From: a virus
Lineage: Duplodnaviria; Heunggongvirae; Uroviricota; Caudoviricetes
Length of the DNA: 14,244 nt
Strand: one strand, 5' to 3'
Virus record (IMG/VR): IMGVR_UViG_3300029080_000085
The notes below the pieces were generated by a model. That model was not told the origin of the DNA, did not search any database, and saw only the letters and a program-made list of their open reading frames with translations. The translations under genes and the position numbers were made by a program. Shown piece after piece: positions 1-5,766 of this stretch (positions are counted from its first letter, which is position 1; each line of letters begins with the position of its first letter).

Positions 1-228
1 TCAAACATCGTGGCGTTGACAGTTAAGACTGTTGGCATGTTCTGCAACCTGATTGAATCGATTGAAGTTGAATGCCTGGGTGGCGATTACCTGCCCCAGC
101 ATAGAGTTGTCACTTCGCAGAACGTCGTTATCGCTCTGAAGATTACTGGCGTGAGAGCAACTCTTGACGAGAGCGACCGAAAGGCCAGCAATAACGACAA
201 CGCCTATAAGATCCGGATTAATTTTCAT
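1..228 (-). CDS. Short Rz-like membrane protein (75 aa), possibly a truncated i-spanin or rzpQ-like
   Basis: ATG at 228 overlaps the endolysin stop (ATGA). N-terminal hydrophobic segment LIGVVVIAGLSVALV. Stop codon falls exactly at positions 3-1, so the ORF is complete but only about half the length of a typical Rz. Confidence 0.4.
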   Translation of the reverse strand: MKINPDLIGVVVIAGLSVALVKSCSHASNLQSDNDVLRSDNSMLGQVIATQAFNFNRFNQVAEHANSLNCQRHDV

Positions 229-767
229 TGCTCCAGCCCCCAGCACGCCAGTGCGCTTTCCTGATCGCGCCGCTCGACCTGCCCATAACAGCCATTCTTC
301 TGCCCTTTTGTCAGGCGGCAATCACGCCCACCATCTTTTATCCACCAGCGAATCGCCTCGCATGCCCCCTTACGATCATCGGCATTCAGCCGCTTATAAA
401 ACGTCGACGGGAAACACTTACCGGGGCCAATGTTATAGGGACAAAATGACGCTATACCCGCTTTCTGTGGTTCGGTCAGTGGCACTTTAATATTGCGCTC
501 CACCCATGCCAGCGCCTTATCCCGTTCAATGGCGTTAACCTGGTCGCATTTTTCCTTCGACAGTTTCATACCGGGAAAAACGGGTTTTCCATCCACCACC
601 GTGGCACCCCGACAGATGGTCCAGATGCCGGAACCATCGCGGTATGCCGTTGTGTGGTTACCTTCTTTTTCATTCAGAAACTGGTCGAGAATATCAGGCG
701 CAGGCGCACCGACGGCAATCAGTGCCAGAACGGCAGCCGACAGGCCGTATCTGATTTTTACGTTCAT
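225..767 (-). CDS. SAR endolysin (T4-lysozyme-like glycoside hydrolase, R21-like)
   Basis: 180-aa ORF with N-terminal signal-anchor-release-like hydrophobic stretch (LSAAVLALIAVGAPAP) followed by a lysozyme-like core (EGNHTTAYRDGSGIWTICRGAT); sits in a lysis cassette downstream of a pinholin. Confidence 0.8.
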   Translation of the reverse strand: MNVKIRYGLSAAVLALIAVGAPAPDILDQFLNEKEGNHTTAYRDGSGIWTICRGATVVDGKPVFPGMKLSKEKCDQVNAIERDKALAWVERNIKVPLTEPQKAGIASFCPYNIGPGKCFPSTFYKRLNADDRKGACEAIRWWIKDGGRDCRLTKGQKNGCYGQVERRDQESALACWGLEQ

Positions 768-872
768 GGATATTTATCAGGATTTATCGGTTTCTGAACC
801 CTGGATATGTTTATCTGTCCCGGCCTGTTGAATCAGGCAAGGAATAGTTAAATACAATAGAGAGGATTGTTT

Positions 873-1145
873 ATGGACAATAGCACCATTTCTCTACAGG
901 AGTTGCTCGACTGCATTTCCAAGCTTCGGGATGATGTAAATGCCCTTACTGTCGCATTTTCATATCTGGCATTCTCAATTCCCAAGGAACAAATGCAACC
1001 AACACTGGCATCGCTCCAGCTTGAATCACTCAACCCCAAATGGTCCCAGCAACAACAAAATTCTTTCAAGTGGCTGGCGGTATTACTGGAAGAAAAATAT
1101 GCTGGTGAAATTACCATTTCGGCGGAGTCTTCAGAGAACCAGTAA
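873..1145 (+). CDS. Hypothetical 90-aa protein, antisense to the late lysis operon
   Basis: Strong RBS AGAGAGGA 6-7 nt upstream of ATG 873. Convergent with and overlapping the 3' end of the minus-strand ORF 1111-1455 by 35 bp. No recognisable motif. Confidence 0.45.
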   Translation: MDNSTISLQELLDCISKLRDDVNALTVAFSYLAFSIPKEQMQPTLASLQLESLNPKWSQQQQNSFKWLAVLLEEKYAGEITISAESSENQ

Positions 1146-1455
1146 TTCTTCCCGGTAGCTTTCCTTTGTAGGTTATCCACACATTCTGCGCCTCTAAAAT
1201 TATGGGGCGCTTTTCCGGCGACAGCTCATCCCCTTCACATAACCCGGCAGCAACATCCAGGAAGACCTGTCTGATGCTCCTTCTGGCTGCTGCCTCATAA
1301 AACTCCAGCGCGGCACCTTCAACACGGTCCAGCGAGATGTCCAGGTCAAAAATTTCACCGTCAAAGCGTTCTTTGTCCCGTAACGCTAAAGTTACCGTAA
1401 CTTTATTCTCAAAATTGCGGATCCCTTTCACAATCAGTTCATATTTTTGAGTCAT
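1111..1455 (-). CDS. Hypothetical protein between holin and endolysin (YdfR-like, as recalled from the Qin prophage lysis cassette)
   Basis: 114-aa ORF starting 4 nt after the holin stop, with SD GGGGAGAG; position between holin and lysozyme matches the essQ-ydfR-rrrQ arrangement as I recall it. Similarity not verified by search. Confidence 0.55.
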   Translation of the reverse strand: MTQKYELIVKGIRNFENKVTVTLALRDKERFDGEIFDLDISLDRVEGAALEFYEAAARRSIRQVFLDVAAGLCEGDELSPEKRPIILEAQNVWITYKGKLPGRITGSLKTPPKW

Positions 1456-1459
1456 TGAA

Positions 1460-1675
1460 TTACTCTCCCCGTGCAGCCTTACGCTTGTCTTCTTTAATCT
1501 TGAAATAAAGGTTTGTCAGATACGTCAGCAAGCCAAATACCAGACTACCCAGCACACCTATTGCCGCCCACTGTGAGGGCGTGACTTTATCGAGCAACTG
1601 TAAAAACCAGTACCCGGCACTACCTGCTGAGGTGCCATAGGCGACACCCGTTGTTAACTTATCCATGGATTTCAT
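1460..1675 (-). CDS. Class II pinholin (S21-like) with dual-start motif
   Basis: 71-aa [29 protein letters not shown]...[17 protein letters not shown] closely resembles phage 21 / DLP12 EssD-type holins; Met1 and Met4 give the classic antiholin/holin dual start; SD GAGGTG upstream. Confidence 0.85.
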
Positions 1676-1710
1676 AACCCCACCTCGCAGATGCGGGTGC
1701 TGTGTAATGG

Positions 1711-1735
1711 AAATAAAAAGGCCACCTACGTGGCC
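1711..1735 (-). terminator. Intrinsic terminator downstream of the methyltransferase gene
   Basis: Perfect 6-bp stem GGCCAC-CTAC-GTGGCC (1720-1735) followed on the minus strand by a U-run (TTTTTATTT, complement of 1711-1719). Confidence 0.6.
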
Positions 1736-1741
1736 ACCAGA

Positions 1742-2794
1742 TTATTTCCCCACCAGCTCGTTTATCTCTTTCACTGTCTGGTTAAACCGCTCTGACTCAA
1801 GCTCAACACCTAAGGCCCGACGCCCCAGCGCCATTGCTGCTTTTATTGTGGAACCGGATCCCATAAAAAAATCAGCAACCAGATCACCAGGTCGACTACT
1901 GGCATTGATTATTTGCCGGAGCATATCCGCAGGTTTCTCACACGGATGTTTACCCGGGTAGAACTGAACGGGTTTATGCATCCAGACATCGGTATAAGGC
2001 ACGGAGACTGATACGGAGAAATAGCGCCGGAGAGATTTAAACTCATCCAGCAATTCAGAATATTTGCGATTCAGTGAATCATAAGATGCCACCAGCTGGT
2101 GGTGTGGTTGTTCCAGTTGTTGTTCCTGAAACTTCTCTGCCGCTATACGGGAAAACAGTGCCTGTAACTTCCGATAGTCAGCCTCATTCGGCAACTGCCA
2201 CTGACTGGCACCAAACCAGTGGGAAACCATATTTTTCTTACCTGTGGCTTCGGCAATTTGTTTTGCCGTTATACCCAGTTCGGCACGAGCATCCCTGAAA
2301 TACGATATCAGCGGTGCCATTATGTGCTGTTTGAGTTCCCTTTCTTTTGCCGCATAGCCGTCACTTTTGCCGCGATATGGCCCCTGGTAATGTTCAGCAA
2401 ACAGAACGCGCTCTGTGGCAGGAAAATATGCGCGCAGACTTTCTTTATTACACCCATTCCAACGTCCGGACGGCTTCGCCCAGATGATATGGTTAAGCAC
2501 GTTGAAACGTTCACGCATCATGATCTCAATATCAGATGCCAGGCGATGCCCACAGAACAGGTAAAGGCTTCCGGCAGGCTTTAACACCCGCCAGAACTGG
2601 GCCAGACAGTGGTCCAGCCACTTAAGGTAATCTTCGTCCCCTTTCCACTGATTGTCCCAGCCGTTGGGTTTCACCTTGAAGTACGGCGGATCGGTAACAA
2701 TCAGGTCAATGGAATCATCAGGCAGGGACTGAATAAAATGCAGGCAATCAGCGTTGATTAAATCAACACTGTTTATTTTTACAGTATTTTTCAT
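1742..2794 (-). CDS. DNA methyltransferase (beta-class N6-adenine/N4-cytosine family), no adjacent recognisable restriction enzyme
   Basis: 350-aa ORF with motif IV DLIVTDPPYF near the N-terminus and motif I FFMGSGSTIKAAMALGRRALGVELE near the C-terminus (order IV then I). Confidence 0.85.
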   Translation of the reverse strand: MKNTVKINSVDLINADCLHFIQSLPDDSIDLIVTDPPYFKVKPNGWDNQWKGDEDYLKWLDHCLAQFWRVLKPAGSLYLFCGHRLASDIEIMMRERFNVLNHIIWAKPSGRWNGCNKESLRAYFPATERVLFAEHYQGPYRGKSDGYAAKERELKQHIMAPLISYFRDARAELGITAKQIAEATGKKNMVSHWFGASQWQLPNEADYRKLQALFSRIAAEKFQEQQLEQPHHQLVASYDSLNRKYSELLDEFKSLRRYFSVSVSVPYTDVWMHKPVQFYPGKHPCEKPADMLRQIINASSRPGDLVADFFMGSGSTIKAAMALGRRALGVELESERFNQTVKEINELVGK

Positions 2795-2943
2795 GGATCA
2801 GTAAGCGTAACTCTGGTAGGCTCACTCTGCTTTTGCGCTAAAGCAGTGGGCCGTGGTTCGCTTGTGACCAGTAAGCATGAGCGAATGGCTGGCAGGTGCT
2901 ACCAACACCCACCAGCCGCCCATTTTCACAAATTAAAAGCCCT

Positions 2944-3138
2944 TCATTGCTGAAGGCGTCTGTAACAGCCGAACTGGTAATCTGCCAGCCCCGCCATAAC
3001 CAGCTGGGTCAGTATTAACTGACAGCGTTCGCGTGAAAGGTATGTGTTTTGTGCAATCTCCCCGACTGTTGCCGGTTCGATGCTTAATTCATTAAAAACA
3101 ACTTTCGCCGTTTCTGTCATATCTTGCTGTTTTAGCAT
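2944..3138 (-). CDS. Small putative winged-helix-like DNA-binding protein (64 aa)
   Basis: Preferred start ATG 3138 preceded by GAAGGGAAAAAG; the longer ORF-track start at 3162 lacks an RBS. Segment ATVGEIAQNTYLSRERCQLILTQLVMAGL resembles a recognition helix and wing. Fold assignment is inference. Confidence 0.35.
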   Translation of the reverse strand: MLKQQDMTETAKVVFNELSIEPATVGEIAQNTYLSRERCQLILTQLVMAGLADYQFGCYRRLQQ

Positions 3139-3257
3139 GTCTTTTTCCCTTCTGGTTAACATGACATACCAATAACTCTTGTCTAAAAAGCCAGCAAGAT
3201 AAACAGTCAGTATTCACGACCACCAGCGTGTTTACCGTACTGCACCAATGTTTAATT

Positions 3258-3281
3258 TATAAAAAAACCGCGAGAACGCGG
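3258..3281 (-). terminator. Intrinsic terminator downstream of the 176-aa moron ORF
   Basis: Perfect stem CCGCG-AGAA-CGCGG (3268-3281) followed on the minus strand by a 7-nt U-run (complement of A-run 3261-3267). Confidence 0.6.
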
Positions 3282-3319
3282 TAAGTATTGTTAAAAAACC
3301 AACAGTAATTTCACTCAAC

Positions 3320-3850
3320 TTATTTAATACATTCTTTTGCTTGCGCATAATAAATTTTATGAGTATTAGCAAGCTTAACGAAGTTATACTTAACTGCCCC
3401 TAACAGGGTTCCAACTCTTGTATGCCCTTCCATTAAATGGAGCCCTGTTGTATTACTTTTCAGCAAAGCTCGATCTATAAAAAATGGTGGTTCGCACCAT
3501 GTGCCAAAATTACACCAATGCGCTTTTATTTCATCATCCATAAATACATCACCTTTACGGGTCATGTAATCTTCAACGACCTCATGCAAAAAATCAGGGC
3601 AAGTAGCATTATCCCCGATAGTTAAAAAGTTTTTAGTGGGAAGTTCAATCAATTTCCATTCAATTTGGTCAATATCAAGATCCCCATAAAGCTTCTGAAA
3701 TCTGTCATCGCCTACCAATCCATAATAAATCTCCTGAATTACAGGAGAGGGGGCAATGATAGAATATTGCTCACGAAGTATTCTTTCAGCCTCAGGAGCT
3801 TCAAATATGGTTCTTTCTGAGAAAATAGGCAGAAGATCTCGGTATAACAT
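3320..3850 (-). CDS. Hypothetical 176-aa protein; AT-rich moron between Q and the lysis genes
   Basis: Clean ORF, visibly AT-rich relative to flanking phage genes, with its own downstream terminator and a possible SD (GGGG) 6 nt upstream. No family recognised; contains acidic/lysine clusters (GDLDIDQIEWK, GDVFMDDEIK). Confidence 0.6.
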   Translation of the reverse strand: MLYRDLLPIFSERTIFEAPEAERILREQYSIIAPSPVIQEIYYGLVGDDRFQKLYGDLDIDQIEWKLIELPTKNFLTIGDNATCPDFLHEVVEDYMTRKGDVFMDDEIKAHWCNFGTWCEPPFFIDRALLKSNTTGLHLMEGHTRVGTLLGAVKYNFVKLANTHKIYYAQAKECIK

Positions 3851-4770: not shown

Positions 4771-5766
4771 TTACGCCAGTACACCTATTGCCAGCGCACG
4801 ATCGATAAAACGAAATATCAGCTCCAGCTGGGAGCCATACTTCTCTTCAAATGCCACGGTATCCGCATGCAGCTCGTCGTGATGCTTTCTGCACAAAGGC
4901 AACACAAAAAGGTCATGCGCTTTTGTTCCCATTCCACCCTGACCGTGACCTATCAGGTGGTGGGGATCATCAGCGGGCTTTCCACAACATGCACACGGCT
5001 GTGTCTTAACCCAGCGCGTGTACTTTTCATTAACCCAGCGGCGACGTTTTGGGCGTAACATAAAAGACTCCGGCGACTCCGGATCCACTTTCAGCGCCAG
5101 CACCTTTTTCGCCTTATCCTGGATGATGCTGGTGGCAGGAACCGAAGGCACAAGGTCACTTTCCCGGGTGACAGACGGCACAACAGGCTTCGGTAATCTC
5201 AGTGCCTTACGGGCTGCACTTTCCGGTAAGGCGTCCGCCAGGTCATTACGAATCAGCCACCAGCACAGTTCCGGCATTGTCACAACGTGACTGTCATCAA
5301 AACCGAGATCCCGACGCACAACAGACAACACCCAGCGGGCACAGTTATCCGTTGCCATTGATTCCAGCCGTTCCGTGAACTGATCGCGCAGCTGGTTATC
5401 GCAGTGCCAGCACAGACGGATTGCGCCCGGAGCGTGTCGCATTGTTGTCATGTTCTCGCTGTGCCAGTCGGAATGAAGCCACTGGCAGCCTTTTTCACGA
5501 AGTAACCAGCTTTCAAGACATTCCACGCCACCAGCACGACGGATCACTGCCTCATTGCGGAACACGGCCCGAACGGCAGGATCATCCGCCAGCGGTTGTG
5601 ATGCCGCGGGAACGGCACCACTGGCGAAAGATGAATAACGTTCCGGCTCAGGCTCCAGCAGGACACGCCCCTGCATAAACAAGGGCATCAGCTCTGAACC
5701 TGGCCTGAACAATACGATCCCCATACGCGGGGCAATTTCAGGGGTCAGTAGTGCTCTCACGGTCAC
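4771..5766 (-). CDS. DUF968-like (YdfU-like) protein with C-terminal HNH-like Cys/His motif
   Basis: 331-aa ORF; C-terminal CACCGKPADDPHHLIGHGQGGMGTKAHDLFVLPLCRKHHDELH; position just upstream of Q as in Qin (ydfU-quuQ). Likely GTG start, 1 nt after the upstream stop. Confidence 0.65.
   Translation of the reverse strand: MTVRALLTPEIAPRMGIVLFRPGSELMPLFMQGRVLLEPEPERYSSFASGAVPAASQPLADDPAVRAVFRNEAVIRRAGGVECLESWLLREKGCQWLHSDWHSENMTTMRHAPGAIRLCWHCDNQLRDQFTERLESMATDNCARWVLSVVRRDLGFDDSHVVTMPELCWWLIRNDLADALPESAARKALRLPKPVVPSVTRESDLVPSVPATSIIQDKAKKVLALKVDPESPESFMLRPKRRRWVNEKYTRWVKTQPCACCGKPADDPHHLIGHGQGGMGTKAHDLFVLPLCRKHHDELHADTVAFEEKYGSQLELIFRFIDRALAIGVLA

What the first reader, a model, noticed from the sequence alone, without database searches (positions are those of the whole stretch)
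873..1455. Antisense 90-aa ORF embedded in the lysis cassette, overlapping the YdfR-like gene
A strong-RBS ORF runs opposite to the late operon between the endolysin and the holin-proximal gene, and its 3' end overlaps the 114-aa minus-strand ORF by 35 bp. Being antisense to late genes it would be lysogen-expressed, and its transcription could interfere with lysis-gene expression. The canonical holin-YdfR-endolysin arrangement, as I recall it, has no such antisense gene, suggesting an insertion.
Basis: partly seen in the sequence, partly recalled or inferred. Interest (0 to 1): 0.5.

Follow-up and report, generated by a model that had tools for sequence, protein, structure and literature searches.

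The report
Small moron gene inside prophage lysis cassette
The 90-codon reverse-strand ORF between the lysis genes is a real, conserved small-protein gene of unknown function: an ordinary "moron" (extra cargo gene) that about a fifth of complete E. coli genomes carry in prophages, with chromosomal relatives in Serratia.

Summary
ATG 873 to TAA 1145 (+) has a GAGG Shine-Dalgarno 7 nt upstream. It lies between the lysozyme gene (225-767, -) and the YdfR/DUF1327 gene (1111-1455, -) and overlaps the latter by 35 bp.

ORF length alone means nothing here, but the evolutionary evidence says it codes:
- dN/dS is about 0.3.
- The frame stays open in every divergent copy, while the wobble-sharing antisense frame acquires stops.
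- A profile search finds 30-45 % identical homologues.

These homologues are chromosomal in Serratia (dinI-[gene]-bssS) and lie outside recognisable prophage DNA in Sodalis. In Citrobacter and one unidentified host they sit in prophage late regions, again antisense.

Relative to K-12 Qin (ydfR overlaps rrrQ by 4 nt) and phage vB_EcoS-611R1, window ~839-1113 is extra, AT-richer DNA (41.5 % GC). So it fits the moron pattern.

It is not new as an object. PGAP annotates it (WP_000370545.1), it is PHROG 2411, and it occurs in 1139 of 5426 complete E. coli genomes.

The product is predicted to be a soluble, acidic, three-helix protein with no Pfam, PDB or defence-system match. Lysogen expression and interference with lysis genes remain untested. 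The promoter and terminator are only candidates.

The parts
873..1145 (+). 90-aa ORF (the small-protein gene; PGAP WP_000370545.1; PHROG 2411). The predicted product has three helices at residues 8-35, 38-52 and 59-77 and a disordered tail at 80-90.
859..866 (+). Shine-Dalgarno AGAGAGGA. The GAGG at 862-865 ends 7 nt before the ATG.
   Evidence: Sequence. GAGGATT is conserved across divergent copies.
828..858 (+). Candidate sigma-70 promoter TTGAAT-19 nt-TACAAT. It is unverified: the spacer is too long, and the predicted start near 865 would fall inside the SD.
   Evidence: Own PWM scan: top percentile of the window, and only 2.7 % of 130-nt windows do as well. Not found by the strict scan. 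The TACAAT block is conserved.
839..1113 (.). DNA present here but absent from phage vB_EcoS-611R1. This is the moron-specific segment, at 41.5 % GC.
1111..1145 (.). 35-bp convergent overlap between the ORF's 3' end (disordered tail) and the 3' end of ydfR (...ITGSLKTPPKW).
   Evidence: The homologous overlap segment is also found in Citrobacter L100.
1188..1214 (+). Plus-strand hairpin GCGCCUC(9 nt)GGGGCGC followed by UUUU, 43 nt after the stop. It is a candidate terminator lying inside ydfR coding DNA.
   Evidence: dG -13 kcal/mol, z -4.0. Also present in ydfR copies that lack the ORF, so it is not specific to the moron.
1111..1455 (-). YdfR-family (DUF1327) late gene, the convergent neighbour.
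1460..1675 (-). P21-type holin (EssD/S21-like).
225..767 (-). Phage lysozyme (rrrQ-like endolysin). Separated from ydfR by 343 nt, instead of the 4-nt overlap seen in K-12 Qin.
848..1180 (-). 110-aa shadow ORF in the wobble-sharing antisense frame. Judged non-coding.
   Evidence: Same low dN/dS by construction, but 1-2 stops in L089, L091 and L093. No PHROG or Pfam hit.

Best explanation
The ORF is a moron: an autonomous small-protein gene acquired horizontally and lodged, in reverse orientation, in the variable slot between ydfR and the endolysin gene of a P21/Qin-type lysis cassette.

It encodes a ~10-kDa acidic (pI 4.3), soluble, three-helix protein. The family is uncharacterised and restricted to Enterobacterales. 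In Serratia its members are ordinary chromosomal genes (dinI-[gene]-bssS).

Shown:
- It is protein-coding and under purifying selection.
- It is extra relative to Qin-type cassettes and AT-richer than its flanks.
- It is widespread in E. coli prophages.
- It survives where ydfR has decayed.
- Its family exists outside phages.

Inferred:
- It is transcribed from its own promoter in the ~100 nt upstream (candidate 828-858), independently of Q-dependent late transcription, and hence also in the lysogen.
- Its transcript ends at or beyond the hairpin at 1188-1214.
- The protein acts in trans, by binding a host protein, on host physiology. A stress- or SOS-adjacent role is suggested only by its neighbours in Serratia. 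It is not part of the lysis machinery.
- The 35-bp overlap with ydfR is a by-product of a poorly constrained, disordered C-terminal tail running into the neighbouring gene.
For: Coding:
- dN/dS is 0.28 in the ORF frame and ~1 in the non-wobble-sharing frames.
- On the same loci dN/dS is 0.32, against ydfR 0.35 and holin 0.11.
- The frame is open, at 90 aa, in copies down to 76 % identity.
- The shadow frame is broken in divergent copies.
- The SD is conserved.
- The PHROG 2411 match has E 2e-59.
- Distant homologues share the core motif ELL..I..L...N.L..AFSYLAFS...ES.N.

Moron features (definition from PMC3714127):
- It interrupts DNA that is contiguous in K-12 Qin and in 611R1.
- GC is 41.5 %, against 47.5-54 % in the flanks.

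Independence from lysis:
- Conserved chromosomal synteny rne-pyrC-dinI-X-bssS-solA in several Serratia species.
- No phage genes in the 10 kb around the Sodalis copy or in the metagenomic contigs.
- ORF intact while ydfR is a stop-containing remnant in L092/L093.
- ORF kept with S21 and ydfR in front of a different endolysin set in L089.

Other prophage slots, always antisense: upstream of the holin in Citrobacter, and upstream of the terminase genes in L105.

Product:
- AF2 pLDDT 80, three helices, disordered tail at residues 80-90.
- No transmembrane segment, pI 4.3.
Against: - No expression data of any kind.
- The strict sigma-70 scan finds no promoter.
- The best candidate has a 19-nt spacer and would start transcription inside the SD.
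- There is no canonical terminator. The only hairpin lies in ydfR coding DNA that also exists without the ORF.
- Some copies carry nonsense mutations (3 of 91 loci) or frameshifts (94-aa variants), so selection is not strict.
- Only 3 of 50,697 phage records carry it.
- No fold, Pfam, PDB or PADLOC match gives any handle on function. The host-physiology role therefore rests on gene neighbourhood only.
Confidence: 0.6

Rival explanations
1. Cis-antisense brake on the lysis cassette. The plus-strand transcript converges on ydfR and S. By RNA pairing or polymerase collision it damps leaky or early expression of the lysis genes, and the encoded peptide is secondary.
For: - The 35-bp convergent overlap, with no strong terminator until at least 1188-1214.
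- The overlap segment travels with the ORF into Citrobacter, where an unrelated 63-aa minus-strand gene ends ...KITGSLRAPIKL, like YdfR.
- Antisense orientation in all three independent prophage slots seen.
Against: - Selection acts on the protein (dN/dS ~0.3).
- Chromosomal homologues have no lysis genes nearby.
- The ORF is retained where ydfR is a pseudogene.
- Three of three antisense slots is not significant (p ~0.125 by my own estimate).
- Q-modified late transcription is expected to override a weak convergent promoter (general knowledge, not tested).
Confidence: 0.12
2. Phage-benefit protein acting on other phages or host defences. It would be a small acidic inhibitor (superinfection exclusion, anti-defence, or host-takeover factor) carried as prophage cargo.
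For: - Small, acidic, all-helical and soluble.
- Lies in the moron-rich late region.
- Common in E. coli prophages.
Against: - No PADLOC hit.
- Conserved core-like chromosomal orthologues in Serratia, in a fixed non-phage neighbourhood, argue for a cellular rather than a phage-conflict role.
- No structural analogue found.
Confidence: 0.15
3. Dedicated lysis accessory protein (for example a regulator of the pinholin, YdfR or the endolysin) that merely happens to be encoded on the other strand.
For: In E. coli it is always found beside ydfR and the holin. In Citrobacter it lies beside a holin.
Against: - Absent from functional Qin/611R1-type cassettes.
- Paired with a different endolysin type in L089.
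- Homologues occur outside phages.
- No transmembrane segment or signal sequence.
- Opposite-strand placement removes it from late-operon control.
Confidence: 0.06
4. Not a gene. It would be a chance ORF in a non-coding spacer, or the real gene would be the 110-aa minus-strand ORF at 848-1180.
For: - ORFs of this length are common by chance in the window.
- The minus-strand frame shows equally low dN/dS, 0.22.
- Some copies are disrupted.
Against: - The minus frame shares wobble positions, so its low dN/dS is an artefact. It has stops in L089, L091 and L093 and no family hit.
- The plus-strand protein has homologues at 30-45 % identity across genera.
Confidence: 0.03

Closest known systems
Phage lambda bor (a classical moron beside the lysis cassette; from my own knowledge of the lambda map, not tested here)
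   Same: A small single gene next to the S-R-Rz lysis genes, transcribed opposite to the Q-dependent late operon, absent from some relatives, and regarded as lysogen-expressed cargo.
   Different: bor encodes an outer-membrane lipoprotein with a signal sequence and lies downstream of Rz. This gene encodes a soluble acidic helical protein, lies inside the cassette between ydfR and R, and overlaps ydfR by 35 bp. Its expression in lysogens is not shown.
The alternative 86-aa antisense ORF (PHROG 2572, labelled 'DUF1823-containing') in the same slot of phages PhiR5_1 and PhiR63_1
   Same: Same position (between a DUF1327 gene and R), same orientation, similar size, and a convergent overlap with the DUF1327 gene.
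   Different: - No detectable homology (BLASTP finds nothing; hhalign probability 0.3 %).
- It has a strong hairpin plus U5 15 nt after its stop, dG -19.6.
- Its Pfam DUF1823 score is below the cutoff (15.3 against 25).
- Its family is almost confined to E. coli: 17 of 18 hits, plus one partial Salmonella hit at E 8e-5 covering 29 % of the query.
Uncharacterised Serratia/Sodalis/Chimaeribacter chromosomal small protein between dinI and bssS (for example P0084, P0102)
   Same: Same protein family: 30-40 % identity, same length, same conserved core. Also a stand-alone gene with its own SD.
   Different: In Serratia it is chromosomal, in conserved synteny, co-oriented with its neighbours and with no lysis genes nearby. 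In Sodalis ligni it lies in a different neighbourhood without recognisable phage genes. The C-terminal tail differs.
Phage cis-antisense regulators (lambda paQ and oop, P22 sar; from my own knowledge)
   Same: Transcription opposite to a phage operon, with sequence overlap of the target gene's transcript.
   Different: Those are non-coding RNAs with defined, regulated promoters. Here the element is a protein-coding gene under amino-acid-level selection, and no antisense effect has been shown.

Membership tests
Moron (definition in PMC3714127) | An extra gene interrupts DNA that is contiguous in closely related phages. | tested here: met
   K-12 Qin: ydfR and rrrQ overlap by 4 nt. 611R1 lacks window ~839-1113.
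Moron | G+C content differs from the flanks. | tested here: met
   41.5 % for 839-1113, against ydfR 47.5 %, holin 48.1 % and lysozyme 54.1 %.
Moron | Its own sigma-70-like promoter on one side. | tested here: inconclusive
   The strict scan finds none. The PWM candidate TTGAAT-19-TACAAT at 828-858 is top-scoring, but its geometry is poor.
Moron | A factor-independent terminator on the other side. | tested here: inconclusive
   No scan hit. The hairpin at 1188-1210 plus U4 has dG -13 and z -4, but it is part of the ydfR coding sequence and is present without the ORF.
Moron | Expressed from the repressed prophage. | not testable with these tools
   No transcriptome or ribosome-profiling data were reachable. 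Literature searches for the accessions and names returned nothing.
PHROG 2411 (phage protein family of unknown function) | Full-length profile match. | tested here: met
   E 2.2e-59, residues 1-90 of 90.
Pfam DUF1823 (PF08853) | Score above the gathering threshold. | tested here: not met
   No hit for the 90-aa protein at E <= 1. Even the alternative 86-aa ORF, which carries that label, scores 15.3 against a cutoff of 25.
Known anti-phage defence proteins (PADLOC-DB) | Profile match. | tested here: not met
   0 families at E <= 1.
Holin / antiholin / spanin class lysis proteins | A transmembrane segment or signal sequence, and co-orientation with the late operon. | tested here: not met
   Maximum Kyte-Doolittle 19-residue score is 0.88, so no transmembrane segment. 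The gene is on the opposite strand.
Cis-antisense RNA regulators of phage operons | A non-coding transcript overlapping the target, with a demonstrated effect on it. | not testable with these tools
   The overlap exists (35 bp), but the element is protein-coding. No Rfam match in 1-3400. The effect is not measurable here.

The most novel reading that the evidence does not exclude
The gene doubles as a lysis lock. Its convergent transcript, or the acidic protein itself, would hold down ydfR, holin or endolysin expression in the lysogen or early after induction. The ydfR-R slot would then be a dedicated site for interchangeable antisense lysis-timing modules. Two unrelated ORFs occupy it in different phages, and the overlap segment moves with the ORF between genera.
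Probability: 0.1. Interest if true: 0.6.

Novelty: new member of a known kind. Interest (0 to 1): 0.3.

Why it matters
The practical gain is modest. The work turns an anonymous "hypothetical protein", present in about one in five complete E. coli genomes (including E. coli B derivatives), into a defined small-protein family. The family has a conserved core, a predicted three-helix fold, and chromosomal orthologues beside dinI and bssS in Serratia. That gives a tractable place to look for its function.

It also marks the ydfR-endolysin junction as a recurrent cargo slot with at least four states. In the forms that carry cargo, the ydfR-rrrQ translational-coupling arrangement of Qin is broken.

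If the antisense placement did affect lysis timing, that would be of interest for prophage induction biology. Nothing here shows that it does.

Tried and rejected
- Homology between the 90-aa ORF and the alternative 86-aa ORF in the same slot. By eye, TFGELLALI resembles TFADLIALR, but BLASTP finds nothing and hhalign gives 0.3 % probability. Rejected.
- The minus-strand 110-aa ORF (848-1180) as the real gene. Its low dN/dS is explained by shared wobble positions. It has stops in divergent copies and no family match. Rejected.
- Function by sequence. Pfam, NCBIfam, PADLOC and PDB sequence profiles gave nothing.
- A structured RNA. There is no Rfam hit in 1-3400. The upstream leader fold is unremarkable, z -1.1.
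- LexA or SOS control. I read the upstream regions of the window and of Serratia L095 by eye. dinI has a clear CTGT-N8-ACAG box, but the homologue and the window ORF do not. No formal scan was run.
- Literature searches for DUF1327, ydfR with holin and endolysin, ybl58, WP_000370545 and WP_000370546 gave no relevant paper.
- The search for related loci on genome contigs with the diverse alignment failed because there was no conserved stretch.
- The dN/dS control for the lysozyme gene failed because of length differences.

Full report
**1. What is in the window**

The window is the left half of a lambdoid prophage integrated at tRNA-Thr next to proA. It is 99.8 % identical to E. coli strain 210221272.

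The late operon runs on the minus strand, in this order:
- Q-type antiterminator;
- two small ORFs;
- N6/N4 DNA methyltransferase (1742-2794);
- a terminator-like hairpin (1735-1720);
- P21-type holin (1460-1675; Pfam Phage_holin_2_1, E 2e-35);
- YdfR/DUF1327 (1111-1455, E 8e-43);
- phage lysozyme (225-767, E 1e-23);
- a truncated Rz-like ORF.

The finding's ORF is on the plus strand, from ATG 873 to TAA 1145 (90 aa). AGAGAGGA lies at 859-866, so the GAGG ends 7 nt before the ATG. The 3' end overlaps ydfR by 35 bp, at 1111-1145.

**2. Is it more than chance?**

Length is not evidence. The same region contains several unsupported ORFs of 100 aa or more, including a 110-aa minus-strand ORF (848-1180) directly opposite this one.

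Conservation is evidence.
- Among nine divergent copies, NG86 dN/dS over the non-overlapping part is 0.28 in the ORF frame and ~1 in four other frames.
- The remaining frame, the minus-strand 110-aa ORF, scores 0.22. It shares third-codon positions with the plus frame, so the statistic cannot separate the two.
- That minus frame carries 1-2 stops in L089, L091 and L093, whereas the plus frame is open in all nine.
- On the same loci the ORF (0.32) is as constrained as ydfR (0.35), and less constrained than the holin (0.11).
- The ATG, GAGGATT and the 90-aa length are kept down to 76 % identity.
- The protein matches PHROG 2411 end to end (E 2e-59). The minus-strand ORF matches nothing.
- A library-wide profile search, followed by a profile-seeded search, found relatives at 30-45 % identity in Serratia, Sodalis, Chania, Gibbsiella, Chimaeribacter and Acerihabitans, and at 63 % in Citrobacter. 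All share the core ELL..I..L...N.L..AFSYLAFS...ES.N.

It is therefore a genuine protein-coding gene.

Selection is not absolute. Three of 91 retrieved loci have nonsense mutations, and frameshifted 94-aa variants exist.

**3. Insertion or not**

In K-12 Qin, ydfR (103 aa) overlaps the rrrQ start by 4 nt, so there is no spacer. Phage vB_EcoS-611R1 has a 63-nt spacer and lacks window ~839-1113.

Homology resumes at CGG.GGAGTCTTCAGAGAACCAGTAA. The last ~10 codons and the stop of the ORF therefore lie in DNA that belongs to the ydfR 3' end (...ITGSLKTPPKW).

The ORF-specific segment is 41.5 % GC. The flanks are 47.5 % (ydfR) and 54.1 % (lysozyme).

The slot has at least four states:
- tight coupling (Qin);
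- a short spacer (611R1);
- this 90-aa ORF;
- an unrelated 86-aa plus-strand ORF (PHROG 2572), found in PhiR5_1 and, unannotated, in PhiR63_1, together with a C-terminally extended DUF1327 protein.

The two ORFs are not detectably homologous.

**4. Distribution**

The ORF-specific DNA occurs in 1139 of 5426 complete E. coli genomes, at 1-3 copies, almost always chromosomal. PGAP annotates it as "hypothetical protein". E. coli B-DidR carries a copy 100 % identical over window 839-1113, annotated as WP_000370546.1, in its Rac prophage beside trkG.

Only three of 50,697 phage records encode it: Chlobot, vB_EcoS-783R2 and phiSTEC1575-Stx2k.

Contexts differ:
- E. albertii prophages, with the same order.
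- An Stx prophage in which IS66 abuts the ORF (L088).
- S21-ydfR-ORF followed by a different lysis set, Phage_holin_8, Phage_holin_3_7 and Peptidase_M15_4 (L089).
- A form where ydfR is reduced to a 40-codon remnant containing a stop, yet the ORF is intact (L092/L093).
- Citrobacter freundii, where the homologue sits antisense just upstream of an HP1-type holin. A 63-aa minus-strand gene overlaps its 3' end. That gene's tail...KITGSLRAPIKL, resembles the YdfR tail, so the overlap segment moves with the ORF.
- Another lambdoid contig, where it lies antisense upstream of the terminase genes.

**5. Outside phages**

In several Serratia species the homologue is a chromosomal gene in fixed synteny: rne-ABM-pyrC-dinI-[gene]-bssS-solA. 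It is co-oriented with its neighbours, follows a terminator after dinI, and has its own AAGGAG.

Sodalis ligni and a set of metagenomic contigs carry it among genes that are not recognisably phage-derived. The metagenomic contigs place it beside DUF892, DUF1883 and HxlR genes.

This argues that the protein has a cellular function that does not depend on lysis genes.

**6. The product**

The protein is 10.2 kDa, with pI 4.3 and no transmembrane segment. With the 40-sequence alignment, AF2 gives pLDDT 80. The model has helices at 8-35, 38-52 and 59-77 and a disordered tail at 80-90. The shallower alignment gave pLDDT 70.

The disordered tail is exactly the part that overlaps ydfR. This fits the overlap being a tolerated by-product rather than a designed feature.

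**7. Transcription signals**

The strict sigma-70 scan finds none in 1-3300. My looser PWM ranks TTGAAT(828)-19 nt-TACAAT(853) at the top of the whole window. Only 2.7 % of 130-nt windows do as well, and TACAAT is conserved. However, the 19-nt spacer is sub-optimal, and a start near 865 would remove the SD. A weaker option is TTTATC(783)-17-TATGTT(806).

Downstream, the only terminator-like element is the hairpin at 1188-1210 plus U4 (dG -13, z -4.0). It lies in ydfR coding DNA that also exists without the ORF. By contrast, the alternative 86-aa cassette has a strong hairpin plus U5 15 nt after its stop.

Promoter and terminator therefore remain candidates only.

**8. Interpretation**

By the published criteria for a moron (PMC3714127), two features are met: an extra gene interrupting contiguous DNA, and deviant GC. 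Two are inconclusive (promoter, terminator). One is untestable here (lysogen expression).

The best reading is a cargo gene encoding a small helical protein that acts in trans on the host. The convergent overlap is incidental.

It is weakened by protein-level selection, by the non-phage homologues, and by retention of the ORF where ydfR is dead.

One real consequence of the insertion follows from comparison with Qin: the endolysin gene is no longer translationally coupled to ydfR. Phages carrying this arrangement have nevertheless been deposited as phage genome records.

**9. Novelty**

The ORF is already annotated and already in a PHROG. Morons in reverse orientation beside lambdoid lysis genes are classical (lambda bor, from my own knowledge).

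Three things are new here: the evidence that it codes, the wider family with chromosomal members between dinI and bssS, and the description of the slot's alternative occupants. Interest is modest.

Noticed in passing
L004 1619-1879 (+); L003 ~1620-1880 (+), unannotated there: A second, unrelated 86-aa antisense ORF (PHROG 2572, E 4e-50) occupies the same ydfR-R slot in phages PhiR5_1 and PhiR63_1. It overlaps a C-terminally extended DUF1327 gene (183-211 aa). A strong hairpin plus U5 (dG -19.6) follows it, inside that extension. Its 'DUF1823' label is below the Pfam cutoff (15.3 against 25).
   Followed up: partly
L095-L098, ~5001-5282 (Serratia spp.): The family has conserved chromosomal orthologues in Serratia between dinI (which has a clear LexA box) and bssS, in the synteny rne-pyrC-dinI-X-bssS-solA. 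No source gives it a name or a Pfam family.
   Followed up: partly
window 768-1110, compared with L094 4555-4558: In K-12 Qin, ydfR and rrrQ overlap by 4 nt, a translational-coupling arrangement. Here the lysozyme start is 343 nt from the ydfR stop, and I see no obvious Shine-Dalgarno in front of it.
   Followed up: no
window 1-321 (-); L085 4733-6198: The Rz-like gene downstream of the lysozyme is truncated. In the closest genome, PGAP marks it as incomplete, next to an IS3-family transposase. The prophage's lysis cassette is probably defective.
   Followed up: partly
window 1720-1735 (-): A GC-rich hairpin plus T-run (GGCCACGTAGGTGGCC TTTTT) lies between the methyltransferase gene and the holin, on the late-operon strand. 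It is a terminator-like site inside the late transcription unit.
   Followed up: no
window 1742-2794 (-): A 350-aa N6/N4 DNA methyltransferase gene sits between the Q antiterminator region and the holin. This is a cargo position within the late operon. The same gene precedes the holin in L089.
   Followed up: no
L089 1285-3303: One E. coli contig has S21-type holin, ydfR and the 90-aa ORF, followed not by a lysozyme but by a second lysis set (Phage_holin_8, Phage_holin_3_7, Peptidase_M15_4). That gives two holin systems in tandem.
   Followed up: no
L100 5239-5430 (-), Citrobacter freundii: A 63-aa minus-strand gene unrelated to DUF1327 ends ...KITGSLRAPIKL, matching the YdfR tail ...RITGSLKTPPKW. 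It overlaps the 3' end of the ORF homologue. The overlap segment seems to move with the ORF as a recombination junction.
   Followed up: partly
L088 856-2500: In an Stx-encoding prophage (RIP and SLT_beta genes upstream), an IS66 element ends immediately upstream of the ORF's SD region. It replaces the endolysin side and the candidate -35.
   Followed up: no
window 848-1180 (-): A 110-aa GTG-initiated shadow ORF lies exactly antisense to the 90-aa ORF, in the wobble-sharing frame. It shows spuriously low dN/dS (0.22), which is a caution for frame-blind selection tests.
   Followed up: yes
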